Shown in pieces: positions 7,662 to 44,687 of a stretch of DNA of 64,000 nucleotides; positions within the stretch are counted from its first letter, which is position 1, and each line of letters begins with the position of its first letter. The stretch is from a virus (Duplodnaviria; Caudoviricetes), in IMG/VR virus record IMGVR_UViG_3300013383_000001, positions 64,001-128,000 of that record; one strand, written 5' to 3'. The notes under the pieces were generated by a model that worked only from the letters and a program-made list of their open reading frames with translations, did not search any database and was not told where the DNA came from. The position numbers were made by a program, and so were the translations under genes.

Positions 7662-7684
7662 TATAATATAAAACAATTTTAATT

Positions 7685-8002
7685 ATGAAATTTACACCTA
7701 TTAGAAAATTTCAGGATGGTGGTGCAATGGGAGCACCAATGGAGGAGCAAGCTCCTCAGGAGATGCCCGCAGAAGGAGCAGCTCCTCAAGAAGCACCTCA
7801 AGGTGGCGGTGACCCTTTAATGTAGGTTGCACAGCTTGCAATGCAAGCACTTCAGAGTCAGGATTGTCAAGCCGCTATGCAGGTTTGTCAGATCTTCTTA
7901 CAGTTGATTGAGCAAGCCCAAGGTGGCGGTGGCGCAGCTCCTGCTCCTCAAGGTGAGCCTGTATACCGCAGAGGTGGTATTTTAGTTCGTAGAAAGTGGT
8001 AA
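7685..8002 (+). CDS. Small Gln/Ala/Pro/Gly-rich protein (105 aa), missed by ORF track
   Basis: MKFTPIRKFQDGG...VYRRGGILVRRKW-TAA, one internal TAG, followed by a terminator. Confidence 0.75.
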
Positions 8003-8019
8003 TAGATGTCTAATCTTAG

Positions 8020-8055
8020 ATGGGAGTATGTTGTAAAAAATATACTCCCATTTTT
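8020..8055 (+). terminator. Intrinsic terminator
   Basis: ATGGGAGTAT/ATACTCCCAT stem followed by a T-run, 17 nt after a stop codon. Confidence 0.75.
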
Positions 8056-8069
8056 AATATGAATATGTC

Positions 8070-10961
8070 ATGGCTAAAAAACAAACATATAAAAGAATTG
8101 GAGATGAGGTACTGTTAAGTGATTTTATAAATCTAGCAGATTCTAATTTCCAAGGTTGGCTTGATACAAGAGCTTTAAATAAAAAATAGAAAGAAGCTGT
8201 AACACAGCAATATTCTCGGATAATGAAAGAAATAGCTAAAGATCCTTCTTCCTTTGTCATGGAAGCAGGTAATAGCTTCAATAATAATTTCGGAGTTACA
8301 AACGCTACAGAAGGATTTGATGCAGCAGGGGCTGCCGTTGGATACATAGGTGAGATGCTTCGTAAAGTGAAAGCATATACTCCTGAAAACCTTTATAAAA
8401 AAGGAGATAATATGTTTACACAAGCAATGCAATCTAGGTTAATTGGCAATGATCCTAATGCGTTTTTAGCATTAGATGCCGCAGACGAAAACGGACATCG
8501 ATCTACTAAGAATAGAGATACTAAACTTATAACAGGGTTGACTGACATTTATAATAATATTGATTAGTATAGAGATTTTGATGATGAAGAAACTAAATAG
8601 GATTTCTTAAATAAGTTGCAGCAAACTATCAAAGAGTTACAGGATGGTGACCCATCTAATGACTGGTTCGCATTAGAAAGATTAGGTCTTCAAGGGATTA
8701 AGAAATTCTATTCAACATAGGATGAAATAGAAGAACCTGAGCCAGTAACTGTTCCAACAGAATCAAGTGAAGGTAGTGATGATTCTACAAGTGATAGTAT
8801 ATCTAATGATCTTGGTACTTTATTTAGCCAATTTGTAAATACTAGATACCCTGTTGGTAGAACTGCTCCTGATTATAATCTCGGAAAAAATAATTATAAT
8901 ACACAATTTAAAATAGATGATTTAGATATGCGTTTAGGAGCAGTTTCTAATGATATATTAACAAAGTTCTTTAAAGATTATATTGTTCATAGAGACAATT
9001 TTAATGTCAAAACATCTCTTGGAATTAGATCTATATATAGAAACGCAGCATCAGTATAGGACTATCCAACAGAATTATATTTAAATCGTCTTCTTAATGC
9101 GATGTATCGTAAGAATATGTTAATTAAATTAGGAGAGAATAGATACTTAGTTCCTGGAACATGGAGAAAGGATAATACAGTATACGTCTGGGACACTAAC
9201 GGAGGAGGATTAGGCACTTTGCAAAATGTATCTATACATAAGATTCCTTAGTACAGAAAGATAGTAGAGGATGAGTTCTTTAAAGAGCATCCTGAATTAG
9301 CATCAAAAAGAACAGATTCAAGTGTTGCTGAAGATTATCCTGATATGTTTGTAACTTCATAGAAAAAAGGTGGTGTGTTGAAAGGTAAAACTGGATTGGA
9401 TACTGAATTAATTAAAGCAGTAGATCCTATAATAGACAGAACTACTTCTACACTTAAAATGCCTAATGGAGTAGACTCTTTAGCACCTCGTAGGTTTGCG
9501 GAATTGAATTATGGATTAGATACAGGTAATTCTGATCCAAATGTAGGTAAGGTTGATTATTCTTATAATACATTTATTCTTCCTGGGTGGAGTTCTAAAA
9601 ATAGACATGATAATAGAACATCTTCTATTGGGAAAGATCCCAGCAGACCAAATATAATTGGATCATGGAGTTCACAAAATAATTATGCTAAATCTGGAAA
9701 TATTAAAAAGGATGTACTTGCATATCAATCTGCAAATCCTAATTTAACTGCACAACAGTTTATTGATCTTTATAATTCTAATGTTGATACACTTCGTGCT
9801 ACATCTAATACATTTAAAGATAAAGGATATAATGCTACTGGATTTAAATCACATTATAACTTATTTAATTAGATGTATGGATCTCGTGCTTCTGAATATA
9901 ATTAGAATGTTGGAGCGATGGGATCTCAAGATAATATATCTGATATATTAGGATCTACAATGTGGTTAAGAACTCCTCTTGCTTTTAATTCTGATAGTGA
10001 TTATTAGGATTAGAGAGTATTTCAGTTAAATGATGGCACTAAAGTAAGAGTTAATAATGATGGTAAACTTGAAATATACGATCCTGTATCCGATTCTATA
10101 GATAATGAAGGTAAGAAAATAAAGGAGCAAGCAGAACAAAGGAAGAATGTTTATGGTAAGGATACTAAGGAACAAGAAGAACCTACTTGGCAAGATAAAG
10201 TTCGTAATTTAATTCCTCAATTATTACGTTCTAATCGATTAGCAGATGCTTTAAGAACTAATAATCGAATTAGAGATATAGTAATGCCTTCATTACAACC
10301 TGCACTATTAGAACCTTACGATTTACATTCACCAGTGACTGGCGATTATTATTCACTTAAGACGGCTAATAATATGGCAGCAGACATCCGCAGAGAAGGA
10401 TAGAGGACAGTTTCATCTGATGCTTCATTAAATACCGCTAGAGCATTGCAAGGCGAATCACAGGCTTCTGATCAAGAAATAAAAGGACAACAGGTCGATA
10501 ATGCAGCTATAGATAAGTCACTTACTGAATCTCAAGCTCGTGAAGAAAAGAGTAGAGAAATTCGCAATAAGGTTGCTAATACCAATACTGCAAGTGTTAT
10601 TCAAACTAATCAACAACGTGCTTAGCTTGATGCTAACTTAGAGAAGCAGAATTGGGAAGCACGAGATAAATTCTTCCAAGAGCTTGAAAATAATATCAAT
10701 AAGAGTAATCTCGATAGAAGAGATATTAATCTTCAATCAGCTTAGCAGTTAGCTTTATCTGATTATGAAGAGGAAACTTATAGACTTAATGCAGGATATT
10801 ATGCTTGGAAAGCACAGCCTGGTAATGAAACTAAAACACCTCAAGATTATGATGCTTACACAGGTGGTCAATATATGACTGATTTACGAGATGCTTAGAA
10901 GAAATATAAACAAGCTGTTTTACAAGCATACGTAGACCAAGTAAATAGTACTTTAATATGA
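8070..10961 (+). CDS. Large hypothetical virion protein (~963 aa) with coiled-coil C-terminus, TAG=Gln
   Basis: Frame shared by track ORFs 8223 and 9375; ends in an ATGA overlap at 10958-10961. Confidence 0.7.
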
Positions 10962-12880
10962 ATGTAATACCTAAATTTCAATAGGGAGGAGGGTTTTCCT
11001 CCCTATTTGTAACATATAATCCAGTTCCTCAACCATAGGCTCAAGCAGAAGCTCAACCTACGGCAGCATCTTCAGCAGAAACAAAGAAAAGTGAAGATGA
11101 TGGAATTACTAAAAAAGATATTGCACAAATGCTTGATAATATAGATGGATTACCTAGTGACATGTAGGCAGTACAAGCATCTCTTATTAGTTTGCTTACT
11201 TCACCAAGTATAGGTAGTTCTTCTGATATGTCTGTTGCTTATATGAACGCAATGACACAATTAAAAATTGCTAAGTTTAATAAGCAAGAATATGATAAAG
11301 CATATACTGCAGTATAGTAGAATGGAGGACTAGATGAACAAGCAATTACTGCATCTGGTACCTTAGTTGTTTTTAATAAAGATACTAATGGAATCGATGA
11401 AGTAACTGTTAATGAGTTTTTGAAAGATAAAGGAAAAACATATGGCACACTTACTAATTCCAACCTATTACAAATGAGAGCATGGCGTCCTGAGTATGTA
11501 AATAAAAATAACATATTAGGAGTTGTATCTAATGGTATTGGAATGAAAGAAATACACGAACTTGCATCTAAGATGATTGGTACATTGGGTACATCAGAGC
11601 AAGCAAGAGAGCAACTCAATATTAAAAAGGGTAGTGTTATTGCTCAAGGTTTACAAGTACTTAATGATGCTCAAGCACAAGCAATGATGACCGAGTATGG
11701 AATGTCGTTAGACGGTCTTTATAAAGCAAAGGTAATTACTAAAACACAGAAAGATCAAGCAGAAGCTGCTCTTAACTATGTTTATAGCATGCTTCCCACT
11801 AATGCAAGAACAATGCTTAAGTTAAGATCAGGAGATACTAAAAATCCTGATGCTGGTGCAAGAAAAATACTTGGTGCACTTGTTATGTCTAAAATGGATT
11901 CTACTTATGATCAATCTATAGACTATCTTGGAGGATTTGAGAAAGTAATGGGTAAAAGCAGTGGATCAAAGAAAGGTTCAGGATCTGGAGAAGACGGAGA
12001 TTATGATGATGGAATAGACGGAAAAGCAGGTCCATATACTGCTATTGCTCGTATGATTGGAGCAACAGATACTTCATTCACTTTAAATCCTGGTACAAGT
12101 TATCAGTTTACTGTGGATGGTAAAAGTTATGCATCTCTTCCTGATTATCAAGGCAAACCTGTCGGTAAGACCAGTCTTGAAAACTTACTTATAAGTGGAT
12201 TACAAGGTATTGTCACTAATAAAAATTCTATTACATTTGGTGATGTTACATTGGATGCTCAAGACTTTGATAACATTATGTACGATGGTCGTGGGGGTAC
12301 TCTTATTGTTGCTCCTACTAAGACTGATGCAAATGGTAGAAAGACAATTGACTTGGATGTATTAAAACGTTGGAAAGAAGCTAATGACGATCTTAAAAGT
12401 AAAGGTATTGATATTAATGACTCTTCTAAGATCAATGAAATATATAATGTCCTTCGATCACATAAACTTGAAGGTCTTGTAAATATAGGTGATAAGAAAA
12501 TTGACTATTCTAAGTTTGGTATGTTTATGGCAATTAATGCAGTTGCAGTTGCTAAAACAGATAGAGCTTAGGATAAATTTGAGAACAGTAAATTTGTTGT
12601 TGAATAGGATGATGACGATGATATTGTAGAAATGCTCAATAAAGCATTATCAACTAATGAGAAGCAAGATAATTATGAAGTAAAGACTGGCTGGTGGGGA
12701 GATGATTTATATTCTGGTGTAGTATATATACCAATTAGTAGTAATCCTTATCAATCAATGGTGGCAGAAGGACAAACGCCTAAGGAAAGTGTAGCACAAG
12801 CAAGAGAACATAATTGGCAAAGATCTAATAAGATGCTTTCGGCTCAAAAGCCTGATTCTAGTTTAATGAATAATAAATGA
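10958..12880 (+). CDS. Hypothetical virion protein (~640 aa), TAG=Gln
   Basis: Starts MNVIPKFQQGG, joins track ORFs 11420 and 12632, and has ATGA overlaps at both ends. Confidence 0.75.
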
Positions 12881-15800
12881 AAGAAAACGATTATATATTA
12901 GCGAATATATTAAATCCTGAATTTGATAATTAGGATTTTAAAGAAGTATTGGGAATGGATATGGATAATACCTAGATCCTTCCTTATAATAGTTATGTTA
13001 ATAATGATTATATTAGATCAATAGGGGCATTTCAAGATTCAGATGGTACTTTTAATGAAGATAAATTTAAAAAATATTATCAAAGTGCTTTAGTAGGATT
13101 TCAAGACTTTAGTACTAATCCTTTAGTCGATGACAGTTTCGAGTATGGAGTATTTGATGCTTATCGTAAACCTGATTCTAAAGTAAAAGATCCTCAATTC
13201 CAACTTATGAGAGTGATGAATCCTAATCATGAGAGTATTGGTATTGGTGGAATAAATCAAACCGCAGAATCTCCTTTAACAGGTGCAGAAATTGCACAAA
13301 CACAGAAGATATTTGATTCTGCTACTGGAAAGTATTTGGATTATTCTCCTAATGATATATCTTTAACTAGTAATGTATTTGGTTGGTTTAAATCATTGTT
13401 TGATGATCCTTTAGTTAGAGCAACTTACGATGAAGATGGATTCCATAAAGATCCTTTCACCGGAGAAATGGTAGGACATAAGAAAGGAGAATATAAACTT
13501 AATGATAACGGTGAATATTTCTATGAGACTCTTAATGGTAGATCATTGATCGGTAAGGAAGTACTTTCTGCTACTGATATTCTTACTGTGGATGGTGAGG
13601 GATTAAATAAGTATGACTTTTTAGATTCTGACGATAAAGAGAAATCCATAATGGGGTCTCTTGCTAAAACTGCATTATTAGTAACCCCTTTGTTATTTGG
13701 AGGTCCAGTTAGTGCAACTTATAGTGCATTATTAGTAGCTAAGGAAATGACTAAATCTCTTCCTATGCTTCAAGGTATGTTATCGTCTGCATTTGGTGAT
13801 GGGAGTGATTCTAAACTTATAAACACTCTTGCAGGGTATGCCAATAAATTTACAATGGGTGTATCTGAACATTCTAAATAGAATGTATTTACTTGGGAAA
13901 ATACTATCAACCTTATGGGAGATGTTGCTCTTCAATGGGGGCAGCAGCAATATATTGCAAAAGCAATTGCTGATTTACAAGGATCTACAAAGAAAGTAAA
14001 GGCAGCAGAGAAAGCAGCTAAAGAATTTTATAAACTTAATACAGGTAAAGAAGCCATTGGAGAAGAATGGCTAGAAACCACAGTAGGTAGAATAGCTAAT
14101 AAAACTATTCTCATGCCTGCTAAGATAGAAGCACAAAATGCTTATAAACTTGGTGCAGATGCATCTCTTGTTTATATGGCGTTAGTTTCTAATGAACCTG
14201 TATACGAAGAAATGCTTAATCATGGAGCATCAAAAAGAGATGCAGCGTTAGTTTCATTTGCTAGTTCTGTAGGTATGTTCGGGGTAGATAAATGGGCACA
14301 TTTAGGAGAAATCTTCTTCGATGAACTTAAAAATGAATCAAAAATTGCTTTTAGAAATACTGTAAAAGATTAGATTGAGAAATCTATGGACTCTCTTACA
14401 GAGATAATTAAAAATCCTGAAGTAAAGAAGAAAACCAAGAACCTTATCATGAGAGGAATGGATATTGGTAAGAAAGCGGTTAATAAATTTAATGATGACT
14501 TAAAGAATCACACTCTTGGTTTCTTTGGTAAAGCAATTGGTGAAGGTTTGGAAGAGGTATCTGAAGAGTTTGTAACTGATATATCTAAGACCATCTACGA
14601 AGTAGCAGGTGAATATGATTCTAACTTCTTTAATAGATCAGGTATTAGAGACGTAGGTGCATGGGATAATATGCTCGAAAGATATAGCATGTCCTTAATA
14701 GGTGGTACGCTTGGTGGTGGATTATTCTACGGTGTAGGAGTTGTTAAAGGTGGTAACTTTAAAAGAGATAACACCAAAGATAATCTTATTAACTTAGTTG
14801 CAAATAATAAGACTAATGAATTACTTGAACAACTTGATAAATTAAGAGACCAAGGTAAGTTAGGAAGTACAACATTGTCTGCAACCAAATATGAAAACAC
14901 CAGTGACAATAAGCCTGTTTATCTCACTACTACTGATAGTGAAGATACATAGAATCAATATGTATATAATAGAATAAAAGAATCTATTCTTCAAATTGAT
15001 CAATTACTTAAATAGACAGGTACTAAATTGAGTGATCAAGATCTATTTAATCAATTAGTCCAAAATGAAGAAAGATTTACTTAGCTCTCTGAATTAGAAA
15101 AAGAACAATCATATCTTACACGTTATCAAGAAGATTTTCGTGTATTAACCAGAAAACTTATTGATGCTGAAAAAGATTATTAGAATGCATTAACAAGTGA
15201 GGATGGTACACCTGGAGGAAAGCAATTTGAAGGTGATGTTATTGGTGAAAGATATAAAACAGATGCGGCTCGTTTAGAGAATATTGCTAAAGCAAAGAAA
15301 ACAGTCGATGAACTTAGAAAAGCTCGTAATGATTTTGCTTCTGGTAAAGCATCACTTCCTTATTTGGAGAAATTGTTATTTACAATAACTCCTAATATTC
15401 ATAATGCTTTCATGTCTATGACATACGCTGCTTGGGTAAAGAATAATAAAGGAAAAGATGTACTTACTCTTACGGATTCTGAACATGCTACTTATAAACA
15501 AGAATATCTTCAATATAAGAAAGATAATTAGAAAGATGATATTGAAATGGCATATTCTTTCTTTAAATAGCTGTAGGAGTTAGTAAATCCAGAACTTAAA
15601 AATATTTCTGAGAAAGCTAAGGCTTTTAAAGAGAATGATGAAATGTTTCAAGAGTTATTTGGTAATGAATCTGTTTTTGTAAAGTATAAATTAATTGATT
15701 ATAATGGAAAATTAGAGGAAGAATCAGAAGAAGAATATAATAACAGGGATACTAAATTAGAAGGAGAAACGGATCAAGAATTTGAGGCAAGGAAAAATGC

Positions 15801-18800
15801 TCGTATAAATAAAATAGAATAGAACAATCTTCGTAATATAAATAAAATAAATGATTTTATACAAGAATTAATTGATAAAACTGGAGGAATTGATTTATCT
15901 ACATCTAGACAACTTGTAAATATTTTAGGAACAAGAAAAAGAGATCAAGTACAACGTGTTATTGATGATTATTCTGATGAACAAGCTGCATATAATGTTC
16001 CTGTTATATCTGAAATTATTAGACAGCTAAATGTTGATAATTATGGAAATATTACTAATATCAACGATATAATTGAGAAAATTGCATCACATGTATCTAG
16101 TAATAAAGCAAAAGCAATAGTGCTGAGTACTGATGACACTTTAGAGGATGCTATTGAGGGAATTACGAGTTTAATGTCCTACTCTAAAGAAGTATCTGAG
16201 GATGAGAAGGAGCAATTATTAAATAAATGGTTGCAAGATGATGATATGGTTGAGGAAATCGTATAGGAATATAACGCAATTGTCAATCAATCAAAACAAG
16301 AAGCAGCTGATTTAGTTCAAAGAATTTTAAAAAAAATTCAAAGAAATCCATTTATTCAATTCTTTGATATTGTTCGCAGTAAATTAATTGCTAATAATCC
16401 AATTCAAGCATTAATTTCTAAACTTCCTGTTAATAATCAAGAAACTATAGAATAGTTGCTTAATAATATGTATGAAAGAATGTTAGGATTAAGATCTAAA
16501 GAAGATTTTATTTTAACAGGAGAAGAAGAATCATCTATCGAAGAAGCAGTTAATGTTTTAAATGCCTTAAGTTCTTTGCTTGCGACATAGGTTGAAAATC
16601 CGTCAATATCCGATAGTTATGCAGCAATTATAAATGAATTTGGTAAGAAGTATAAAGCTGATGGATTTGAAGAATTAGTAATTTTAGATGATGATGTGAC
16701 AGCTACATTAAAAATGGAAATTGATTCATATCTGGAAGAATTAACTGGAAGCACATCATTATTAAATGTATCTAGTATCAATCAGGTTAATACTATACAG
16801 AAGTTGATAAATACAGATACTAATTATGCCAAATCTATGGTAGAATTTTTCCATGTAATTAAAAGTAGTGGAAATTTCAAGTTTGTTCATAATGGTACTG
16901 AATATGATTTGTTAGAAGGAATAGACCAAATCTCTGATGAAGAACCATAGGTTAAGTTGGCAAAAATAGAACATCTTTACTATACTAATCTACAAAAATG
17001 TTTACAAAACATGTCTTTTACAGAAGTATTAGACGCTTGTAAACTTATTAGTAAAGATGATCCTAGCTCTGTTCTGAAATTAGATGAAGTTTTAGGACAA
17101 AGAAGTATTGAATTAAATGAAAAATTTGAATTTAATTCCGTAACAGACTATCAAAAGTTTATATATTTATTAAGTATAAGTGCTTTAGATTCTGAAGAAT
17201 TTAACACATATGTAAGAAGTACATCGAATGATACTAATACCAATGGAGATCCTATAGTTCCTTTAACCTCATAGGAAGTAGTAATTCGTACTGGAATTGC
17301 AAAACTTAAGGATAACTCTATATTTGAGCAAGGTATTGCATATATTAAAGACCACATAAATAAATATTAGTTTACACACATAACGTTTATAGATGGTCTT
17401 GCAGGAACAGGTAAATCTTCTGTTTGTGCAAAGAAAATTATTCAATTTAAAAATACGGATTAGGTTTGGGTTAGTTCTAATACAGATGTACAAACAGATT
17501 CGATTCATAGTGCAATAGGAAAAGGAACAAAGTTTAATAAAAAATAGTTATTTGAAAAAATAATAGATCCTCATATCTATGAATAGTTAATGTCTGATTT
17601 AGATGCAGATAAAACAAATTCTGAATTATTTACATTCAAAACTGATCCAGATGGAAATAACTATATCTTAGTAAACTTTGATAAAATTACATTTAACAAT
17701 GTAGATGATGCTCCTGTTATTTTATTAATTGATGAAATCACTCACTTTAGTAACGCTGAATTACAAATACTAAATAAATTTGCGCAAGATCATAACGTAC
17801 AAATTATAGGGTTAGGTGATACTTATCAATCTGGATTTGAACACATTGGAGAAAATGTACAAAGACCAAAAGGATTTATGGTTAGATCTCCTAAGTTATC
17901 AATCTCATTAAGAGCAAATAACTCTTAGAAATTTGCAAATCTCAATAAAATTAAATCTTTAATAGATTTTGTATATACAGTAGATGATTCGAATGATCCA
18001 AAACTTGATTTATTCAAAAGAAAAGTAAGAGAATTAACTCTTCAAGTATATAACAAAGAAGAAATAAATGGAGATTTGATAACGGATACAATAACTGAAG
18101 AAACTGCTCGTAAATTAAGTGGATCAATTGCATACGTTGGAGATACAAATACAGAAGCATTTAACACTTTAAAGAGTGTTCACCCTGAGGTCAAAGTATT
18201 AAGTGTCAAAGAAGTACAAGGTCAAGAATTTGATAATGTTGTAATAAATATTGATTGGAATTATGATTTTAATCAAAATGCTTCCTATTTAGAATTTTTG
18301 CGAAAGTTATATACTATGATTAGTAGAGGTAGAACCAACTCTATTATAATAGATAATAATTTAACGCATATTATTCAAGGGAATGACATTTCTAATCGTT
18401 AGATGGCTGCTCCTAATTTGTAGAGTTCTGCAAATGTATTTATTGAATAGAAAAATATAATTTATAACAAATTAAACGTTCCTGTTCCTTCTCAGAATAC
18501 ACCACAGCAAGGAGATACTACACAAAATCCCTAGCAGGGAGGATAGTAGAATCCTCAATCACCTGCTCCTCAGGGACAGACACCACAGCAAGGAGGAACT
18601 GGTCAAGGTGGATAGAATCCTGCTGCGCCATAGCAAGGTGGTCAAACACCTCCTGCGTAGAATCCTCCTTCAACACCTCAAGGTGGATCTGCTAATAGAG
18701 TTGTAAAATATGGAAATTCAATATTTAATCCAAGTACTGGAGTAATTACATTTAATACTCGTGGTTTAAAAGATGCTAAAGATTCAAGTAAATACTTTAT

Positions 18801-21800
18801 AGTAGAACTTGATGATGCAACTGGTACTGGTACATATAGAATAAATCCTGATGCAATAGACTATATTAAGGGCGATATAGATGTATTCAGAGATACTAAT
18901 GCAGTTGAAATGGATACTGCTGGAGTTACTGCAAATAACATAAAAGATCTAAAAGATACACAGGTAGGAACACTTATAAAAGATGGGGATGGTTGGAAAG
19001 TTAATAAAAAACTTAAAGTAGAAATCATTAAAGAAGGAGTTCCTCCGACTACTCAACCTCCTATATAGAACCCTCCAGCTAGCCCGACCGTAAATCCTCC
19101 TACAACTGATCCTGAATCAACTGAATCTTAGGATAATTCAGGATAGGATCAAGGATTAACTGATGGTACTGGAGAGACACCAGCCCACAAACGCGATGTT
19201 GATGAAGAACCTGAAGAAGATGAACAAGCATTGATTGCTTAGATGGGTAATGACAATATGGAGGATAAATTAAAATCAGCAAATTTAGATGATAATTCTG
19301 AAAGCATTATCCAAGAAGGATAGAATAGATAGGAATCTGTAAAGTAGACTAATAGTTTCCCGATAAGAGTATACAGTGAAGTATCACTTAGTGGACTTGT
19401 AAAACAAGGGACTATTTCTTCAGGCGATAGAAAAAGAACAATATATAGAAAAGGAAATAATTTAAATAATCCTGGAGTTACACATTAGGATTTACAAATA
19501 TTTATAGATACTGACACTATAGATGGTAATAATTTAACTCCGTATGTAAAGCAACTACGTTTATTAAAATCTGCAATCGTTTATGAAAGAGAGTGGGAAG
19601 ATCTTCCTTCTAATTTCCGAGATTTTCTTTCTTCTAAAGGTATAACAAAACAGAGTTTTAATGAGTTAAAAAAGAATATACACATTAAAATTCGCAAAAG
19701 AAGAGATAGTGATCATCATATTGGTTGGAATGGACTTGAATCAGATAAACTAACTATAGGTGAATATGTTTATACAGTTGTTGCTCAAGTAACCCCTGAA
19801 GGATCAACTAATACTTTTGAAATAACATTGGGAGCATTAGCTAATCCTGATTCTTATACTGTTTCTGAATGGGCAAGAAGTAATGGTAAAGAAGAACAAA
19901 CTAAACAAAACATATAGAGTTATAAAACATTATTCGATAGCTTAACTCAATAGGCAAAACAAGCTATTGATCAAGGAGGTATACTTGATTTAGTGCCTGG
20001 AACTGTACAATTCTCAGGAACATCTTACCTTAGACATTATCAAGGCACTGGAGCAGAAAGAACTAGGGTTCCTGTTACAGATGTAGGTCATTATAGGGCA
20101 ACACATCCTTTTTAGGTGATTACCGAAAAACATATTATTGTTAATCAAGATGGATCGTTTGATTAGCCAAAAGGTAAAATTCCGTTAGGAGGAAAAACTG
20201 TTTTATTTGTATCGGACGATTTAACTTTAGAAGGTAAAGATTTATACGAATTATATATTAAACAAAGAGAAGCTAATAAAGATGGAAGAGTAAATCCTAG
20301 TTCTAAGAAGTATCCTATTAGAATGATAATTCTAACAAATACTGGTATTGCTTACACAGATTTCTTTAAATATGGTTATAACTATTCTACATAGCAAATG
20401 ATTCGTTTTCCTTTTGAAAGAGATTTTACTGGAGCAAGAATGATGACCGCCCTGTGGAATTATCGAGCATCTTTATATAATTTCAAAGAATATTTGGATG
20501 ACTTTATTAAAAAAGGAATTGAAGGTCATCCTGAAATAATATTAACGAAAGAGTTAATATTAGAAGCATTAAAAGAGGAAGCTAAACATTATGATGTTAA
20601 TACAGGGACATCTACTGTAGATGAAAATAATTAGTATTACACCATAATTAAAGCAATTAAAGAATTTAATGATTCCTTATCAGATAGTGTTCGACAATTT
20701 AGGCTTGGTTATTATGCCGAAGAAAAAGCATTTAATTCTCAAATTAGAGTACTAACTAATGCTAATAAAAATGGAAATCCTTTCTACGGGAAAATAGTTG
20801 AAAATAGTAAAACTCCTAATAAACAAATATTAGGAACTTATATATCTCCACAATCTTTAGATATGCAGATAAAATTATTGGATACATTAATGTCCACGAT
20901 AGAAAGTATTGAAATAAATGGAGTTCCTTTTAAATTAGTGGATAAAGATGGTAATATTTATGATAAAACTAGATATATTACTTATAATGAAGGATACCCA
21001 AATTCTGTATCTCAATTAACAAATTTAGTTAATCAAGAAACAATAACTGTCGATGGGGTTACAATAACTGGATTTAGTAAATCGTTCTTAAAACTACTTC
21101 CTCTTTTTCTGAAAGAAATAGAATTAACAGCACGTCTAGATAGGGGAGATAACACTATGGATGTAAATGGTGTTAAAGTTAATACAACTAACTTGCTTGA
21201 TACTTTAAATGAATATGCAAATGGAGAGCAAGGATATGGTTCTGATAATTTCTCTTTATATACTGAATTATTAAATTTAATATTTCATGGAAACGCTAGA
21301 GGAGATATTAGTAGAAGTACAACTCATGCTACAGATGCTATGTTTAAATATGGATTCTTTATAGATCCGTATGGTTCTGCAGTAATTGAAAATACAAACA
21401 AACAAGCGTAGTTGAAAGAGTGTACAATGTCTGATAAGATGTTTCTTATTGATGTTGAAGTTGACATGCCTGTTTTCTCTATTAGTCTAGGAGAAATGAA
21501 AAAAGCTATAAGACAAGCAACTTAGAATACTAATCCAAGTTAGACTGAACAAACTCCAGTAGGGGAGCAAACTCCACCAGAAGAATCAGCTTCAGTAGAA
21601 GAGTAGAATCCTCCTGCTGAGCAAACTCCTCCAGAATAGACATCTCCTACTACAACACCTACTCCTAAACGAGGTAGAAGAAGGGGTGCAAAAAATACTG
21701 CTGTTAGCTTTGAAACATTTATTAGCAATTTAGACGTCGATACTAAAGTTGCAGAACTTGGAAATATTACTATATCCGAATATTTAAAAGCATTAAATAA

Positions 21801-24800
21801 TGGAGAAGAAATAACGGATTTCAAATTAACTAAAGATGGAAATAAACTGATAGTCGATACTCCAGTAGGAAAATTTGAATTTTTCCTTGATATGGATAAT
21901 AATTTATAGGTAACTAATCCAATTAAATCTCCTAAAAAACTTGATCCATCAGATATAATTTCTACTACTCCTATTAACAATCCTGCTTATAATATTACCA
22001 AAACACCTCCTTTTAAAGCAAGATTTCAACCTCAAGGAGGTAGAGGTAAACTTATATATGCTCAAAGTGGTACTGGCAAGACTACTATCGCAGACAATGA
22101 AACAGTATTTGATTCTGATTGGATTAAAGCTAAATTGCTTGGAGTTCCCACTGAATTAGCAGGAACTGTAGAACATTTAATGTCTGATTATGTATGGGTA
22201 ACTGAGGAAGTAAATGGGGAAACAGTTAAAAGAAAAGTTCCTATTGAGTAGATGCAGCTCTTGAATAATCCAGAAGTAGCACAACAACATGCTGTTATAA
22301 TGCAGAAGTATGAAAATGGTATCGATCTTACTAATTCTGAACAGTTTGCAGAGTTCTAGCAATTATATCCATGGGAACAGTATGCTTTATTAAAGAAATC
22401 TGATGATATTTTTTACGTTGATGAAAGCACTTTAAGCGTTAGGCTTGATGGATCTAAGACAAAAGTATATGTACATGAGTATCTTGATGAATTTCCAACT
22501 AAAGGAGATATAGCAGAGCGTGCAATTAATAACATAGAAGCAAATAAAGGAAATGTATCTTTAATAACTAGCAATGGGATAAAAATTGACTTTAAAAATA
22601 TTAAATGTACTAAATACCCAAACGCTTAGTTCTTTACAATTGAATCAATAATTTCCGATCCTATTGCATCCTAGGAATATAATAAAGTTGTAGCTGCATT
22701 AAACTATCCAGATGTTAATTTAAGAAATATAAATGATGTACTTGAAGGTACTAAAATATGTAATATTTTAATAGATAATGAATCTGGTGTATCAAGCGAG
22801 GCTATTATTCCTGGTATGAAACCAATGCTAGAAAGTTATAAAGGATTTAGTAAAGTTTATCCAAACGGAGAAGTTGTTTCTAATTCATCAGAATCAAAGG
22901 TACAACAATGGATAAACGGAATACCTGCTGTTTCGGCTAGTGATGAATTTAATGTACTAGTTACAGTTCAAATAAATCAATTATTGGATCAAGGAATGAC
23001 TGTCCTTTCTACTAGAAATTAGGATATTGGTCAAGCGGATTACATTGTATATAATGAAACCGATAGGCAATCCAAAGATCGTACTGGTAACTTTGATAGA
23101 GGTAATTAGTATGATAGCACTGATGCTTGGTAGAAGTCAATGGACATCATTAATAAAGTACCTGATGATAGTAAAAAGTACGCATTAAAAGAAGGAGAAT
23201 ACTTAGGTCATGTCCTCTTAGAATCAGGATATGAGAACTTTAATATAACGTTAAATCGTATTAAAGAAAATAAAAATGTAGCCTAGGCGATTTAGACTTT
23301 TTTTGGTAATTTTGGAATAACTGTTGAAGAATACGGAGCAGCTGGATATAGTATTGATTATTTACAGCGTGTAATTCAAGGTATTCATGGAGAAGGGGAT
23401 CTTGTTGAAGGCGCAGGTGAGTTTATATCATTCATGATGCAATGGAATGAAAGAGTTAAACACATTATAGGACGTGCTGAGGAGCTTAAAAATCCAGATG
23501 GTACTAAATACTTCTAGGAGAGAAAAACTAAAGCAGGATAGCCTTATACTAAGTTTAATGATTTTGCATATAAAGACTTAAATAAAGCAAATTATTTTAA
23601 GATGCTTGGTGCATTAATTGATGCAGAATTAGCACGTCAATTTAATGTTATTAAAAATACAGATAATGTTTCTTCTGCATCATTAGAAGGATTAGCAAGT
23701 ATCGAAGATATAAAATCTATTATATCCAGTTTTGATTCTAAAGTATCTGATGATGAAGATCTTGTTGAAGAGATTTATAAATTTGTTCAATATGCTGCTT
23801 TTAATATGCTTGCTAATAATCAAGGAATTATATTGCAGAGTATTACTAAGCCTGGGGCAAAGATGGAAGGAAGGGTATATAAGGTAAATGTGGAATAGGC
23901 ATTTGATGAAAACCCATGGGAGTTTGAGATAGTAAAAGCTCTATCCAATACAGGAGTGGTATCCTTAGCAGGAAGTACAGCAATGGCAACACAAGGAGTA
24001 GTGTATAGACCTTTAGAGAATCCATTACATGATCTTGATTTTAATACATACGCAACTGGTAAAGTAAATTCTAACGAGGACGCAAAAGCTGAAGTTGATA
24101 AAATCTTAAATCAAGTTAGACAATCAGATATTCAGAATAGAAAGCATGTTAGAACCATGAATAATCCAAATAAAGAAACAGGTAATATAGATAATTACAC
24201 TGTTACATATTTGGTTTTAGCTGATGCAGATGGACGTACAATTCCTTCTGATTCGATTACTTTAGAACAAGAAGATTATGTTCAAAGAGGAGAAACCAAA
24301 AATGATAATACACACCAGAGAGTTATTGTCAATGGAGAAGTTATAGGGCATATTGTTAGAGGTAACATAACATTCACTAAGGCAGGCTTTAAAGGTAAAT
24401 TACTTGATTTCTTTGTACATCCTAATGGTGTAAAACTTTCAAATGGTACACAGCTTCATCCAAGAGAATATAATTATAAAGGAACAATTCTATTAATGAC
24501 AGATTATAGAATGGCTCTTGCAGCAAAACAAAGATGGGCAAGATTAAAAGACATTTTTGATTATAATAGATTTGTAAAAAACGAACAAGAACTTACTACT
24601 AGAATAGTTGAATCTACGAATAATAATAATTCAAAAGCAATAATAGATATGCTGAATGAAGTGGTAGGAAAAGTAACTATTAGAACAAAAACTTAGAAAG
24701 ATAAGGTAGTTTAGTTTATACAACTATTCTCAGAAGATCAAAGTATAGATAACATAAGAAACAATTGGAATAGTAAAAAAGAAGTTCGCGATGCTGTTAA

Positions 24801-24867
24801 AAGAATAGATGTACAAACATTCAATACTATAGATAATATTATTAATAACACAGTAAAAGATTGCTAA
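12877..24867 (+). CDS. Giant polyvalent virion cargo protein (~3996 aa) with SF1 helicase-like, P-loop kinase-like and nucleotidyltransferase-like domains, TAG=Gln
   Basis: Twelve + strand track ORFs (13207 to 23956) share one frame and the gene ends KDC-TAA. Motifs: GLAGTGKS/LLIDE/GDTYQ/QGQEFD/YTMISRG; AQSGTGKT; LAGS...HDLDF. Confidence 0.75.
18481..18690 (+). repeat. Low-complexity coding repeat (PQQGG/QNP/QTP linker)
   Basis: Repeated cca-cag-caa-gga, ccc-tag-cag-gga and cca-tag-caa-ggt units. Confidence 0.8.
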
Positions 24868-24868
24868 T

Positions 24869-27800
24869 ATGGGAGCATATTGTGAAATGCCTAAAAAATT
24901 CTTTGAAAATGAAGAATCTGTAAAGAATGATAGAGATATTAGTAAAATCACTTCTTAGATACAAGATATTATAGTAAATTCTGAAGAAAAAAATGTAGAC
25001 ACATTAGCTAATTCAATCAAGTCAATATTGTTTGACCAAGATAGTAATGTAAATACTGATACAAATGATAAAAGATTTGATACATCAATGCAAGCCCTAG
25101 GTAAATACCTAGGGTCTGTATTGAGTGAAATGGATATAGATAATTCACTCAAACAATCTTTAATATCACAATTAAAACCAGAAGAATTATCCGCATATCT
25201 TATTGGTAAAGCAATACCTGTAGTCGAATAGGAAGAAACTCCTTATATGGAAGATAATGAGAATATGCAAGGTGAGAAAGAAAGATTGAAAGAAACAAAA
25301 GATTCTATTATTGAATCTTTTTATAGTTATATTACTAACGGCAATGTTTATAGGCAAAGAGAATTTAATCTAGAATTTGTTAATTCTATTTTGACTACTA
25401 AAGGATAGAATGGATTAACTAGAGTAAGAACAACCCGTGATTTAAATATAGCTATAATTAAATTAAAAAATAAATGGTTCAAACTTATCAGTGATTTTGT
25501 AAAAGCTAATTACGAAGGAGATTTCACTGATGTAATGTTTGATAGTAATGGAAATGTTGTATCTAGCCATATATAGGTATTAAATAAGTTTTATAATTTA
25601 GTACAAAAGTATAAAGAAGATGGATCTTTAGAGCTAAAAGTACAAAACGGATGGGCTAATGCAATTAGTTATCAAGATACTGCAAATTCTCAATTCTTTC
25701 ATGTACTAAATGCATACGTTAACTTAGTTTACTTTGATTCTATTATTCAATCACTTGATAATACAGTATCTCTTAAACACTCGTATATGTCAGGAACTGA
25801 GTATAATCTTAATGATGGAAAATATGAATTTGGTAAGAATGAAGCAAACAAACGAAAAGGTTATCAAAATTCTGAACAACGTAATGCCGATAAGGATTTA
25901 GGTGCTTTTCCTAAATTAGTATTAAGCTCAATTCCTATAATTAGTTATGGTAGAGAAACTAGAGAAACTGTATCTCTTTAGTTATTAATGTATGCTTGGA
26001 CCCAGCTTCTAGATGCTCGATTTGATAAACTTCCTGCGGTTATTAAAGAGGCTTTATTAAATGCACACGGTGATCTTAACGAATATCAAAAAATATTTCA
26101 AGAGATAGCAAAGCCTGAAAGGAGGCAAATGTTCAAAGAAGCAGGTGTTTCGCAAAAAGCATACGATGTATTATACTCCGTTGCAAAAAAAGTATATGAT
26201 CAAAATAACCCAGAATCATACTACAATGTTGAAAAGTCTGTAGAAGAAAATGATCCTACTCCGTTAGGTTATTCTTTAGTTGATACTGTTAGTGCTGCTT
26301 TAAATAGATCTAGATCTGTTACATACGGAGAGTATGTTTATAATAGAGAACTTGGAATATACTAGTATAGAACTAAAAGAAAATACGCTTTAAGAAAGGA
26401 TTAGTTTAATATAAAGAATAATATTAATAATTCTATAGTTAGTATTCCAACGTCACAAAGAAAAATTATTAGAGATAAATGGAATTTTAAATAGGCTCTT
26501 TCTGATAGTGACTCAAATGCAAAAACTTGGAGTGGCTTTAAAATTACATTAAGTGATGGAACTGTTTTAACAATAGAAAATCCAAAAGGAGCTACAGTTC
26601 TAGATTCTTCAAGTGGTTCCTTAAGTTTTAATAGTGAAAATAAACCATTACATGAAATATTAACTGAATATTCTAAATATATTGCATTAGATGATTTAGA
26701 CGTACTAAATGCAATTATTAAAGGCACTTCGCTTAATGAGCATCAACGAATGTTTAGAGATATTCTGGAATATGTGGATGACTATTTAGGAACTGATTTT
26801 TTAACCATTGATGGCTTAAATACTATAAAAGTAATGACTGAAACAGATCTTGGGAATACTGTAATCAAGTAGTTACTTACAGCTGCATCCAAGTCACAAA
26901 TAGTTAATGAATTATATTATCAATTTGAATTAGCAGTTCAAGATTAGACATAGGAACAATATCAATCTATATTGGATTTTTATACATTTTTAAGTAAGGA
27001 GTATGTAGGATTTAGCAAAGCTAATTTAACTGATAGTAAATTTATAAAAGAAGTAGGTCGTTTGGAAGATGGTATATTCTAGTTATTTGCAGTAAGATAG
27101 AAAGATTTATGGGTTGATTCCTTTGCAAAGGCAAGAGCTATTGTAAGAGGTGCTGCTTTTAAATCTACTATAAATGACTTATCTAAAAATAAAGTTCCAA
27201 ATACAAGAGTATCTTTCTTAGGAGGAAATATTAGTTATTATATTAATAAGTATAAACGTTAGACAAGAGAAGCTATTAACAAAGAACTTACATATTTTGA
27301 AGGATCTTCTCAATTTACATCTCTACTAAATCTTATTAAAGATTCAAATCGCACACAGAAAACAGTATATGGTATAAATATAGATGATTTAGTTGGATCT
27401 ACTGAATGGGCTAAGGCTTATAACTTAATTGAAAGACTTGCTGAAAAAGATGGAACGTCTAAAACTCAAGCACTTGTTAAATATTTCAATGATAATGGTA
27501 AAGGACATACAGCTCAGATAATGAAAATTGTTGTTGAAGCAATGGAATTAGGAGTTAATGCTACTAATTGGTCATTATCTAAAATATAGATGATGCTTAA
27601 AACTTTAACAGACGAGTACTCAGGAATTGCGTATAATGTAATCGAAACTCTTGAAGGAGGTAAAGAACTTGCTTCTAAGATAAGAGGTGTAAAGGTTGTT
27701 GGATAGTCTTTTAATGGGTAGTTATTATTTGCAAATAATGATATTATAGAAGATTTTGTAGTAAATACTGACTCAAGCAATAGAAACAAGCGTGTAAAAC

Positions 27801-40059: not shown

Positions 40060-40061
40060 AT

Positions 40062-43000
40062 ATGAGTGGTGAAAGTTGTTCAATAAATGTAGGAACTCGT
40101 ACCTTTAATTCATTTCAATTAAGAAATTTAGTCTATTCTACAGATATTTCAGATCCGTTTGCAGTAATACATGGATTATAGGATTAGGAATTTTATCCTT
40201 AGTATGAAACTACATTAAAGTTGTTTGAATTGTAGAAGCAAGGCAGAGAGTTAAGAAAGAAAATTAATACTTCTTTTAATACAGGTAATCTTGAGTTAGA
40301 ATTAGAAGAATCTGCAGATCAAGATATTATTACTATCTAGCAATTAATGCTTAGCGATATATTTGATGAAGTAAGCTCTGGAAGTAGATTTAATTTGGAA
40401 GAATATAAAGCACACACGATTCAACAACTTCAAAATACAGAAGGACTTACTGAAGAGCAAGCAAGAAAAAAAGTAGAAATATTGATTGATAATTGGATGC
40501 AAATTGCAAAAGATTCAGCAGCACTCCACAAAGCAATACAATTATATAATGAAGATGAGACCAAGTTTGAAGAACTTTGTATGTAGGATGAAGACATAAA
40601 ACCATATAAATTACTTCTTTCTTAGTTACATGCATCTATAACTAATAGTTTGAATACCTTTATTTAGAAGGGTATTTTGATGAAGGGATGTAGAATTGTA
40701 AATGGTCTCAATTTGGTTAGCGAAATGAAAGATTTGGATAAGAAATTATTCGGACACATTGACAAAATTATAATTGATAAATACAATGATGTATATATCA
40801 TTAATTACAAATTCACAGAAGGAGGATTTAAATTATCTACAACAAAATTGGAAAACTGTAGATATCAAATGGCTTTATTGACAGAAATGCTTGCAAAAAA
40901 AGGGATAAATGTTAGAAATATAAAGTCGTATGTAATTCCTGTTAAGTTAACATATAGCACTCAAGATGATTCTTTGTAGAATCTTAAAAAAGTATCGGTT
41001 GATTCTCCTTTTAATTTATCTATTTCTAACAATAGAAATAGATCTACAAAACATTTAAATACTGCGCGACATTTTATTGACGCTCCGATTTAGATTAAAA
41101 CAAGTATGTAGGATGTTAATGCTGTAAAAAAATAGATAGATTGCTTGTTTAGTTCTACTGATATAGCAGCTGATGGTGTAACAGTAATTCCAAAAGCATG
41201 GATAGCTAGAAATCGATCAAAAATTAAAGTAAGTAATTCCCCTGAATATGCATACGAAGTTAATTTTGGAGAAAATGATACTGCATATATAAAAAGCTCT
41301 GCTCCTCCCTCAAATAATTAGGAAATATTTGAAGAAATAATAAAAAGACAAAATGATTTATTAGAAGATGACGATTCAGTAGTAAGAACACTTGTTAAAA
41401 ATGTAAGAGCAGGAATCAATGGAGAAATGTTTAATTTATGTGAATCTGGAATGTTTGGTAAAGCAGGTTACTTCTTAAATAATTTATTTGGTCAATACTT
41501 TAAAAAAGACAAAGATGCTCCTCAAGAATATGAATTTATTAGAAATGATGTTCTAAATTCTTGTAATATTATATTAATCAAAAAAATAGGTAAAAATGGT
41601 ATGCCTGATCAAATAGATGTGTTTAGGATAAGTGGATTTGACTTAGATCAAAAAGTCAATCTAAAAAGAACATCACAACATATATTTGGAGATATATTAA
41701 GTTAGCTTGATTCAAAAGTTAAAGAATCAATCAAATATAAACCTACATACGGCAATATAGAAGCACTTGTAACAATGCTTTTATTAAATCAAGTACTTCC
41801 TAAAATATCTGGAGATTTCACATTAGGATCAGTCAATGTTGTTTCTACTAATTACACAGGACAATATATTCCTTATTCTGCTAGACAATTAAATACTGAA
41901 CTATTTTCTACAGCAACAGAAGTATTAAATGATTTTTCAGAATTAACTGTTAATAACAATTTCAGTAATTAGAAATTTGTAGATCCTATTGATTTAGTTG
42001 TTGAATAGTTTAGAAATATTATTTCAGATCCTGGAGTATATAATTCTGAAGTTGATAAATACGAAGACATGGGGTTTGATGATTTATTAACAGTAAACAG
42101 TAAAGAAGCTAAGTTAACTCTTCTTAGATCTCTTGCTAAAAAATTAGTTGAAGATAAAAATTGGTTAGAGAATTTTGAAGCAGTAAGAAGATCTAAAAAT
42201 GGATCAAGGTGGAATATACTATACAGAAGAATACTAGAAGCGATAGCTTATTATGATGTTGGAGAAGTAAGTTCTGTGGAAGAAAAAATGTCTTTTGCAG
42301 ATTCTAAAGGAATGATTTCTAGTAGAATTAGAAATAAAAATGTTCAATTAGTAACTGAATTATATACTAGAACTATCAATGAAATATCTGAAAAAGTGCA
42401 TATTAAATGGGAGCCTATTAGACAAGTATTCTTCTAGTTCTATAAAGATATGGGATATTCTACTACGAGGAATGCTGTAATAGGTGACTTAGTTAGAATA
42501 TTTGATGATCTATATGCTCAAGACGAAAGAGGAGAAAGAACTCTTAGACTTTTAAACCCATACGATAATGCAGATATGGCTCAAATTAAAGATAAAAGAG
42601 AAATTAAACGTAAATTTCTCAAAAGAGTATTATTTGAGTTCGCAAAGGTAAGATACCCTCAAAAAGGAATTGCGTTTAACTTTAAGAATGAGAATGATCC
42701 CGATCTTCAAGAGTTTATCAATAGACATAGACAGGATTATTTCAATATACCACTCACAAGAGCAAGTAAAAGTACTCGTAATGTAAAGATGAGTGTTAAA
42801 GAGAAATGGAAAGATACAGCTCGCCTTGCAGTTAAAATTATCAAACATCCTAAAGCAGCTTTTGAAGAACTTTATAATGATGTTGCTAATCCTGATGAAA
42901 GAAATTACTATGAAGATGCAGGTATAGGTAGTTTACAAGTTCGCAATAAATTCTGGAAAGGAGATGATCTTGATGAAAGAGATAATTACATTGCTCAACA

Positions 43001-44687
43001 AGGTGTTAATTACTTTGAAACTAATCTTGAATCATTACTTATTGACTATATAGAAAAAGATATTCAAACTAAAGGATATTAGAAAGCACTTCTTACAATT
43101 AAAGGTGTAATTCTTTAGTTGGATTTATTAAAAGGAAGTCCTAATCTTAAAGCAATTGCAGAACAAACTATTAAAGAGATAGAAGACTACGTTAAAGTCA
43201 ATGTGTTTAATACGTCTATTATGTCTAAGTTGTCTCAATAGATTATGGCAATATTAGCTATTCCTAAACGTATTGTATCTGATACATTAATTGGAGGCCA
43301 TGTAGTAGGAGGTGTCCGAGATGTTTTTCAAGGTACTTGGGAGAATATGTTGCGAGTGATTGTTAAGTTTGATACTAAGCTATCAGCTAAATCTTTAAAT
43401 AAAGCATACGTTGAAGTAACTAAGAATGTATTTAAAAATGCTAGATCTATCAACATAATTAATCAATTATGTTAGATATATCGTATTTCTAATGTGGATG
43501 TTGCTCGTATATCAGAAGGTTTGAAAACCGATAGAGGTATGGCTAATTTCAAGACTTGGTTATATGCTTCTCTTCGTAGACCTGACTTCCTTAATCGTAT
43601 GGTAATGTTTGTAGCGCATTGTATGGAAGATGGTGTGTATGATGCTTTTGATATCAAAGATGGTAGATTAGTATATGATTGGAAAAAGGATAAACGATTC
43701 AGCATCTTTGCAGCAGGTAAAACAAGCGATCCAAAATATAAAGAATAGATGGGTGCATATTATAATGCAGTAAGAGCATATAATGCAGATCACCCTGATG
43801 CTACCATTGGATTTAACCCCTTTGAAGAAGGAGCTACACCACTTCCTATGCCGTATTCTTTTAATGATGTTGAGAATATTAAAAAGGTTGCAAATAATAT
43901 ATACGGTTCATACGATAGAAGTACTCGGCAAGGAATTGAGAATATATTTATAGGACAGACATTTGGAATGTTTGCTACTTGGATGAATGGTATATATGCC
44001 AACTGGTTTACAAAGCCTGGAACTTACTCTACTGGTTAGTTTGAAATGCAACAAGCTAAAGATGATCAGGGTAACTTATTATACTTTGATATAATGGGTA
44101 ATGTGATTGTTCAAAGAGTAGACACAGATGGTAATGTAAAATATTACTATGATGGAACAGACACAGAAGTAACAGAAGGATTGGATAAAATAGTCCCTGT
44201 TATGGATAAAGTACCTATTCCAATACAAGGTATCTTCTATACTCTTAAAGAATGTGGTAAAGCCTTAAAGAATGGAGACTTTAAAGAAGAGATATGGTAG
44301 AATGATGTTAATAAAGCTAATCTTAAACGATTAATGGCAGAGCTATTAGCTTGGTTAATATTTGGAACTATTTATAAGTGTGTTCTCACTCCTGGATTTA
44401 AAGAATTTAAGAAAGGAATGAAGGAGCGAGATATACTTACAAATGCAATTACAGAGCTTATTTATAAATCATCATCTTCATCATATGATAGTTTTAAAGG
44501 ATTATATAATATAATAGATTTTGTTGGAAATGCTGATGGAACACCTATTTATAAATAGAATAATAGACTACTTATGGATTTAGGTAAAGTTGCTTTAGGA
44601 GATAAAGGATTCTTCGATGCTTTTAAAGGTAACATAGCCATATTTAAAAATTTCCAATATTCTATATCAGCAGAAATGAAAAAATAA
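40062..44687 (+). CDS. Giant virion cargo-like protein (~1541 aa) with N-terminal PD-(D/E)xK-like domain, TAG=Gln
   Basis: Eleven + strand track ORFs (40347 to 44334) share one frame; ends at TAA overlapping the next ATG. Confidence 0.75.

What the first reader, a model, noticed from the sequence alone, without database searches (positions are those of the whole stretch)
24856..40080. Head-to-tail cysteines linking four consecutive giant cargo proteins
Seen: three successive junctions read ...KDC*|MGAYC (24867/24869), ...INC*|MGKC (37730/37732) and ...NCG*|MSGESC (40059/40062). Each upstream protein ends in Cys and each downstream protein has Cys in its first six residues, with only 1-2 nt spacers. 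The first protein (MKENDY...) has no N-terminal Cys and the last (...AEMKK) has no C-terminal Cys, as expected for the ends of a chain. Cys is otherwise scarce in these proteins. Inference: disulfide or metal links join about 10,000 aa of cargo in gene order, so it threads through the tail as one chain and is released in the reducing cytoplasm.
Basis: partly seen in the sequence, partly recalled or inferred. Interest (0 to 1): 0.8.

Follow-up and report, generated by a model that had tools for sequence, protein, structure and literature searches.

The report
Terminal cysteines chain giant phage cargo
Four giant proteins that this gut phage probably packs in its head and injects, including its RNA polymerase, carry a cysteine at exactly those ends that face the next protein; the rule held at all 71 such ends checked across crAss-like phages, which suggests an end-to-end disulfide tether that I did not find described in any paper.

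Summary
The pattern is real. The window is a 166-kb TAG=Gln crAss-like (Zeta-type) phage. Four cargo genes (3996, 3706, 775 and 1541 aa; 10,018 in all) carry Cys at all six facing ends and at neither outer end. The junctions are consecutive only after three group I-type introns are removed from the virion RNA polymerase gene; the 1-2 nt spacers are not required. Across 20 genomes (Zeta-type, Steigviridae, Intestiviridae, Suoliviridae, Fpv1), 71/71 facing ends have Cys and 0/34 outer ends do (interior 0.13%). phi14:2 gp65-67 hold only four Cys in 5,398 aa, all at facing ends. Fused genes keep no conserved Cys at the join, and a lineage that splits protein A has a Cys pair at the split. There is one Cys per end and no conserved His, which favours an inter-chain disulfide over a metal site. 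A tail-head complex prediction gave weak support only (0.60 vs 0.02 control). The bond, and its role in threading and cytoplasmic release, are inferred, not shown. I found no paper describing it; this scan has noted it on at least seven other genomes.

The parts
12877..24867 (+). Cargo protein A, 3996 aa (TAG=Gln), SF1 helicase domain near residues 1500-1830; chain start: no N-terminal Cys, last residue Cys
   Evidence: homologous to L002 A and to two separate genes in L001
24862..24883 (+). Junction 1: A Cys3996, TAA, 1-nt spacer, B Cys5
24869..37730 (+). Cargo protein B, virion RNA polymerase, 3706 aa after splicing (exons 24869-32621, 32852-32868, 33028-34230, 35583-37730); catalytic GSDYDIDK at 2587; Cys5 and Cys3706
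   Evidence: colinear with intron-free homologues of 3401, 3518 and 3254 aa; hit to crAss001 gp50 over the catalytic region, E 1.4e-4
32622..32851 (+). Intron 1, 230 nt, group I type (exon ends in U, intron ends in G, P1-like helix with U-G at the splice site)
   Evidence: no Rfam hit
32852..32868 (+). 17-nt micro-exon encoding part of the polymerase catalytic motif
32869..33027 (+). Intron 2, 159 nt, U|...G| boundaries
34231..35582 (+). Intron 3, 1352 nt, carrying a TAG-free LAGLIDADG homing endonuclease ORF (34266-35447)
37725..37743 (+). Junction 2: B Cys3706, TAA, 1-nt spacer, C Cys4; helix-Gly-strand-Cys tail facing a Cys-strand-hairpin-helix head
37732..40059 (+). Cargo protein C, 775 aa, Cys4 and Cys774; both are invariant columns in four homologues at 19-43% identity
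40051..40079 (+). Junction 3: C Cys774, TAA, 2-nt spacer, D Cys6
40062..44687 (+). Cargo protein D, 1541 aa; chain end: Cys6, no C-terminal Cys
3193..12880 (+). Five upstream genes (3,101 aa) with zero Cys, in the position of the C1/C2-type channel cargo; outside the chain (identity inferred from position only)

Best explanation
The tail of each cargo protein docks on the head of the next through a small split module (helix and strand from the upstream protein, beta-hairpin and helix from the downstream one), and the two terminal cysteines form one inter-chain disulfide. This makes A-B-C-D a covalently continuous, ordered pseudo-polyprotein of about 10,000 aa, the functional equivalent of the gene fusions found in other crassviruses. 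SHOWN: the paired, polar Cys pattern, its conservation, and its trade-off with fusion. INFERRED (fairly strong): the facing Cys bond to each other as a disulfide. INFERRED (weaker): the bond forms in the released virion or during periplasmic passage, keeps order and 1:1 stoichiometry while the unfolded cargo passes the narrow tail and envelope channel, and is reduced in the host cytoplasm for whatever part reaches it.
For: 71/71 facing ends and 0/34 outer ends carry Cys in 20 genomes; interior rate 0.13%. phi14:2: 1797 aa with one Cys (last residue), gp66 2180 aa with two (3, 2179), 1421 aa with one (3); crAss001 gp47 one (2339/2341), gp49 one (5). Fused proteins: in four Intestiviridae and four Suoliviridae fusions the only invariant Cys is the remaining terminal one; the Fpv1 4401-aa fusion has a single Cys, at 4400. 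One Zeta lineage splits A and both new ends carry Cys in every distinct variant with intact ends; the window and the L002 lineage are fused with no Cys at the aligned site. The rule survives gene inversion. Exactly one Cys per end, none with a second Cys within 10 residues, His near only 3 of 83 ends, positions variable, both codons used. Complex prediction of the B tail with the C head: weak support, score 0.60, best control 0.02; runs agree in at least 95% of contacts, partner pLDDT at least 71; the mark was reached by 58 of 80 solved and 2 of 110 mismatched pairs, but at 0.60 or under by only 7 of the 80 and by both mismatches. crAss001 virions do contain inter-subunit disulfides and need cargo to unfold through constrictions under 50 A (PMC10172136).
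Against: No disulfide has been observed; the complex prediction gave no contacts or Cys-Cys distance and did not test cognate against non-cognate heads. Assembly happens in the reducing cytoplasm of a host that, for gut members, is an anaerobe, and this genome has no thioredoxin-family match, so the oxidant is unknown. The window's proteins carry 30 other Cys. The fused L078 protein keeps one Cys at the split-equivalent site. L039/L042 insert a 645-aa gene with an N-terminal but no C-terminal Cys between C and D, so a strictly linear chain fails there; these two loci are not in the 71/71 tally. Isolated, reduced gp66 is an active polymerase (bioRxiv 10.1101/2020.03.07.982082), so the link is not needed for catalysis. 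The genomes are related, so the counts are not independent events; the A split is one event.
Confidence: 0.58

Rival explanations
1. The same cognate disulfides form, but they staple a folded assembly (a packed cargo complex in the head, or a membrane-spanning ejection machine oxidised by host periplasmic Dsb enzymes) and have nothing to do with threading as one chain or with release.
For: The head-tail docking prediction needs no thread (weak). In N4-like phages the giant vRNAP is itself part of the assembled ejectosome (PMC13434306 abstract). The cytoplasm where virions assemble is reducing (general knowledge). The branch-like case in L039/L042.
Against: A folded complex could place disulfides anywhere; here they are confined to chain ends, are polar, and are replaced by a peptide bond on fusion, which points to backbone-like continuity.
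Confidence: 0.2
2. The facing cysteines bridge a metal ion (for example Zn, hook-like) instead of forming a disulfide, possibly with four Cys from two chain copies.
For: Works in a reducing cytoplasm; paired conserved Cys.
Against: No end has a second Cys within 10 residues, His lies near only 3 of 83 ends, and no column near the Cys is conserved. A site built from two chain copies cannot be excluded.
Confidence: 0.09
3. Non-covalent strand complementation does the linking, and the Cys are small buried residues or redox sensors that stay reduced.
For: Many Zeta and Intestiviridae ends share a helix-strand tail and a hairpin head; the predicted docking does not require a bond.
Against: Cys is the only invariant residue on both sides, also in ends that lack the strand pattern (phi14:2, crAss001), and no Ser, Ala or Val substitution was seen in 71 ends.
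Confidence: 0.08
4. Other thiol chemistry: protein trans-splicing or transpeptidation, lipidation, or self-circularisation of each protein.
For: Asn precedes the C-terminal Cys in 14 of 40 ends, as at intein C-junctions; LysM/YkuD transpeptidase gene directly downstream.
Against: The Cys sits 1-11 residues from the C-end and 3-6 from the N-start, which does not fit junction chemistry; no Hint domain and no signal peptide evident in the N-termini; the first and last proteins have one terminal Cys only, which rules out self-circularisation; the YkuD gene follows D in only some loci.
Confidence: 0.04
5. Chance, or a by-product of a nucleotide signal for translational coupling.
For: The window's junctions all share TAA(T/AT)ATG.
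Against: About 1e-9 by chance in the window alone; both Cys codons and variable offsets are used; the rule persists with long spacers and on opposite strands.
Confidence: 0.01

Closest known systems
RNA-polymerase-associated cargo block of Crassvirales: crAss001 gp47/gp50/gp49 (PMC10172136) and phi14:2 gp65-gp67 with vRNAP gp66 (PDB 6VR4; bioRxiv 10.1101/2020.03.07.982082)
   Same: Giant late genes in the same block, DxDxD polymerase in the middle, virion-packed in the cultured phages; they carry the same terminal Cys pattern.
   Different: Four chain members here instead of three, an intron-split polymerase gene and TAG recoding. [quoted passage not shown]
Cysteine-free ejection proteins of Schitoviridae (N4 gp50-52, DEV gp71-73; PMC11445570)
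   Same: Giant ejected polymerase with strong Cys suppression attributed to periplasmic passage.
   Different: Those are one polypeptide with essentially no Cys; here Cys is kept specifically at facing termini of separate polypeptides.
Disulfide-linked two-chain proteins such as AB toxins, where a bond joins the end of one chain to the start of the next and is reduced after translocation (own knowledge, analogy only)
   Same: A reducible covalent link that preserves chain continuity during passage of an unfolded protein through a channel.
   Different: Those come from one cleaved precursor and have one link; here separate genes give up to four links in series. No homology is claimed or tested.
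Structural disulfides of the crAss001 tail barrel, fibre hubs and gp57 (PMC10172136)
   Same: Shows that inter-subunit disulfides form in crassvirus virions.
   Different: External, permanent and not terminal; not in cargo.

Membership tests
Crassvirales vRNAP-associated cargo block | Giant protein with the DxDxD catalytic motif, homologous to crAss001 gp50 / phi14:2 gp66 | tested here: met
   GSDYDIDK at residue 2587 of spliced B; BLASTP to gp50 over that region E 1.4e-4
Crassvirales vRNAP-associated cargo block | Block of giant co-located genes at the end of the late/structural region | tested here: met
   same order in Zeta-type relatives
Crassvirales vRNAP-associated cargo block | A and D homologous to gp47 and gp49 | tested here: inconclusive
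   No direct BLASTP hit of A or D to gp47/gp49 at E 1e-3; the equivalence is positional
Crassvirales vRNAP-associated cargo block | Proteins present in the virion and ejected | not testable with these tools
   Shown by MS for crAss001 (PMC10172136); inferred here
Zeta group of crAss-like phages | 145-192 kb genome, stop recoding in late genes, polymerase ORF disrupted within the DxDxD motif | tested here: met
   166,364 bp, TAG=Gln on late genes, introns in the motif match PMC7886860
Zeta group of crAss-like phages | Placement in the TerL/MCP/portal tree | not tested
   No marker tree built
Inter-chain disulfide tether | One conserved Cys on each partner | tested here: met
   71/71 facing ends; one per end
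Inter-chain disulfide tether | The two segments contact each other with the thiols adjacent | tested here: inconclusive
   Weak support 0.60 vs best control 0.02, no contacts given
Inter-chain disulfide tether | Reductant-sensitive covalent bond | not testable with these tools
   Needs gels and MS
Zinc hook / Cys-His metal site | CxxC or additional conserved Cys/His ligands | tested here: not met
   0 of 83 ends with a second Cys within 10 residues; His near 3 of 83
Split intein / trans-splicing | Hint domain halves with fixed junction residues | tested here: not met
   No Hint match in B, C, D or in A from residue 1201; whole A had no PHROG match; Cys offset variable
Group I introns (three in gene B) | 5' exon ends in U paired to G in P1; intron ends in G | tested here: met
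   U and G at all three; P1-like helix folded for intron 1 only
Group I introns (three in gene B) | Match to the catalytic-core covariance model | tested here: not met
   No Rfam hit at E 0.1; the class assignment rests on boundaries, the endonuclease and intron-free homologues

The most novel reading that the evidence does not exclude
Crassviruses build a redox-reversible polyprotein from separate genes: cognate tail-head modules are locked by single disulfides into a chain of up to about 1.1 MDa, which exits the virion in a fixed N-to-C order and is cut into subunits by the reducing cytoplasm; gene fission is tolerated only with a Cys pair at the new ends.
Probability: 0.4. Interest if true: 0.88.

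Novelty: new variant of a known kind. Interest (0 to 1): 0.74.

Why it matters
How podophage-like virions order and deliver megadaltons of protein through a narrow tail is open; the crAss001 structure paper says only that order is likely set by packing and by interactions among the cargo (PMC10172136). This pattern names four to six residues that make the question directly testable in cultured phages (phi14:2, crAss001, DAC15) with a non-reducing gel. It would also explain why these genes fuse and split so freely across the most abundant gut phage order, and it gives a sequence rule for correcting start sites and for spotting intron-split cargo genes.

Tried and rejected
Standard code and TGA=Trp: rejected, TAG=Gln gives about 46 kb of coding on the plus strand against about 14 kb. 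Idea that Cys1375/1388 of A are a relic of the fusion junction: rejected, they align 30-45 residues downstream of the split site. The Cys ending the 33007-34260 ORF and the cr116_1 2507-aa ORF lie in intron read-through and were not counted. Single-sequence locus searches found no close relatives; alignment queries did. Fold of a natural in-frame read-through of the L019 junction (TAA read as a residue): mean pLDDT 55.7; it puts strands 53-58 and 65-71 either side of the two Cys, but the link is artificial and confidence low, so it is not used as evidence; Foldseek found nothing at E 0.001. Rfam: no hit. Thioredoxin PF00085: none in this genome. A six-row tree of protein A has no outgroup and cannot fix whether the split is derived. 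Literature: searches and term look-ups in six papers found no mention; the Nature version of the gp66 paper and most subscription journals are not held. For crAss002 and cr110_1 I took the internal Met before the Cys (residues 33 and 15 of the annotated ORF) as the start; this agrees with the aligned starts of p-crAssphage and ctbg_1 but favours the rule by two ends.
Full report
Setting. The window is part of a complete 166,364-bp phage genome. The plus strand up to 46.3 kb is fragmented under code 11 and opens into long genes when TAG is read as Gln. Size, late-gene recoding and introns inside the polymerase motif match the Zeta group of crAss-like phages as described in PMC7886860; I built no marker tree.

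The observation. The three junctions read exactly as reported. Protein A (12877-24867, 3996 aa) ends in Cys; B starts with Cys5; the ORF ending at 37730 ends in Cys; C (775 aa) has Cys4 and Cys774; D (1541 aa) has Cys6. A lacks an N-terminal Cys and D a C-terminal one. Interior Cys is 0.30% against 1.26% in 96 other ORFs, and five upstream genes (3,101 aa) have none. Six of six facing ends by chance is about 1e-9 with wide windows.

Between 32623 and 35583 lie several ORFs, one a LAGLIDADG endonuclease. An intron-free homologue of 3401 aa covers both sides. Three cuts, each after U and ending in G (32622-32851, 32869-33027, 34231-35582), give one open frame of 3706 aa with GSDYDIDK at 2587, part of it on a 17-nt exon. 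Intron 1 folds a P1-like helix with U-G at the cut; Rfam gave no hit. So B is the virion RNA polymerase and the four proteins are consecutive, 10,018 aa in all.

Conservation. Two relatives at about 30% identity show the same rule, one with five genes and four junctions. Both terminal Cys of C are invariant at 19-43% identity. phi14:2 has four Cys in its three proteins (5,398 aa), all at facing ends; crAss001 has five in 6,102 aa, four of them at facing ends. In 20 genomes from Zeta-type phages, Steigviridae, Intestiviridae, Suoliviridae and Flavobacterium phage Fpv1, 71 of 71 facing ends and 0 of 34 outer ends carry Cys (first 8 or last 12 residues); the interior rate is 0.13%. The genomes are related, so this is not 71 independent events, and two start sites were moved to an internal Met. 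The rule does not depend on gene adjacency: the first gene is inverted in crAss001, DAC15 and cr116_1, and spacers are much longer in Intestiviridae.

Fusion and fission. Where two members are fused, no conserved Cys marks the join: only the remaining terminal Cys is invariant in four Intestiviridae and four Suoliviridae fusions, and the 4401-aa Fpv1 fusion has a single Cys, at 4400. Within the Zeta-type set one lineage splits A in two, and both new ends carry Cys; the window and the L002 lineage are fused with none at the aligned site. Two exceptions: fused L078 keeps one Cys at that site, and L039/L042 insert a 645-aa gene with a head Cys but no tail Cys between C and D, which suggests a branch or an alternative end.

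Chemistry. Over 83 ends there is exactly one Cys each, no second Cys within 10 residues, His near only three, offsets of 3-6 from the start and 1-11 from the end, and both codons. This fits a single disulfide better than a metal site, splicing chemistry or a nucleotide signal. Self-circularisation is excluded because the first and last proteins have one terminal Cys. Many ends look like a helix-Gly-strand tail and a hairpin-helix head. A controlled prediction of the B tail with the C head gave weak support: 0.60 against a best control of 0.02; runs agree in at least 95% of contacts; partner pLDDT at least 71. The mark was reached by 58 of 80 solved and 2 of 110 mismatched pairs, but at 0.60 or under by only 7 of the 80 and by both mismatches; no contacts were given.

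Mechanism. Shown: a polar, paired, order-wide Cys pattern that trades off with gene fusion. Inferred: cognate ends dock and form one disulfide each, giving covalent continuity equivalent to a polyprotein. More weakly inferred: this keeps order and stoichiometry during ejection through constrictions under 50 A (PMC10172136) and is undone in the cytoplasm. crAss001 virions contain inter-subunit disulfides, so oxidation in virions is possible, but the oxidant is unknown and this genome has no thioredoxin-family match. Reduced gp66 alone transcribes, so the link is not catalytic. I put about 0.78 on cognate disulfides of some function, 0.58 on the tether-for-delivery reading and 0.4 on the full thread-and-release version.

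Relation to known work. The cargo block is known (PMC10172136; bioRxiv 10.1101/2020.03.07.982082), as is Cys suppression in ejected N4-like proteins (PMC11445570). None of the papers searched mentions the terminal Cys; subscription journals are mostly not held. Earlier agents of this scan noted the same pattern on at least seven other genomes; these are unchecked notes and not independent support. I had seen the pattern in phi14:2 and crAss001 before reading them and tested their fusion claim myself.

Verdict. Observation confirmed, interpretation partly supported: a real and apparently undescribed feature of a known gene block, with a specific and cheap test. Interest 0.74.

Noticed in passing
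window 32622-35582: Three introns in the polymerase gene; a 17-nt micro-exon between tandem introns carries part of the catalytic motif. L003 has lost intron 1 but keeps intron 2; L002 has an insertion at the intron-2 site.
   Followed up: partly
L039 15068-17005 and L042 15068-16780: Extra gene between C and D with an N-terminal Cys but no C-terminal Cys, while D keeps its own N-terminal Cys: possible branch or alternative chain end. C there appears to start at a GTG overlapping the end of B.
   Followed up: partly
L078 4850-14527: Fused protein A keeps one Cys (1695) aligned with the C-terminal Cys of the split form: possible re-fusion relic or pre-fission state.
   Followed up: partly
window 17370-18350: SF1/UvrD-like helicase domain inside cargo protein A (Pfam Viral_helicase1, E 9e-8).
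   Followed up: no
window 44687-46297: LysM plus YkuD L,D-transpeptidase gene directly after the chain (stop/start overlap); also in L003.
   Followed up: no
window 28750-29290: About 180 aa of B (1293-1471) match the last cargo protein of cr1_1 at 39% identity (E 3e-25): a mobile domain shared between different chain members.
   Followed up: no
window 3193-12880: Five consecutive genes, 3,101 aa, without a single Cys; two begin with a similar short N-terminal motif (K-Y/F-Q-x-G) also seen in L001, L002 and L078 counterparts, a possible packaging signal.
   Followed up: no
whole genome G000: ARAGORN finds no CUA suppressor tRNA despite TAG=Gln recoding (only Arg, Gln-TTG, Arg); an earlier scan note proposes an intron-split one.
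   Followed up: no
L007 24978-26245: p-crAssphage annotates two thioredoxin-like genes near its cargo block; this genome has no PF00085 match.
   Followed up: no
L020 vs L021, protein D: Nearly identical genomes carry two different D alleles (1508 and 1523 aa) with a near-identical N-terminal Cys head, consistent with a swappable last module.
   Followed up: no
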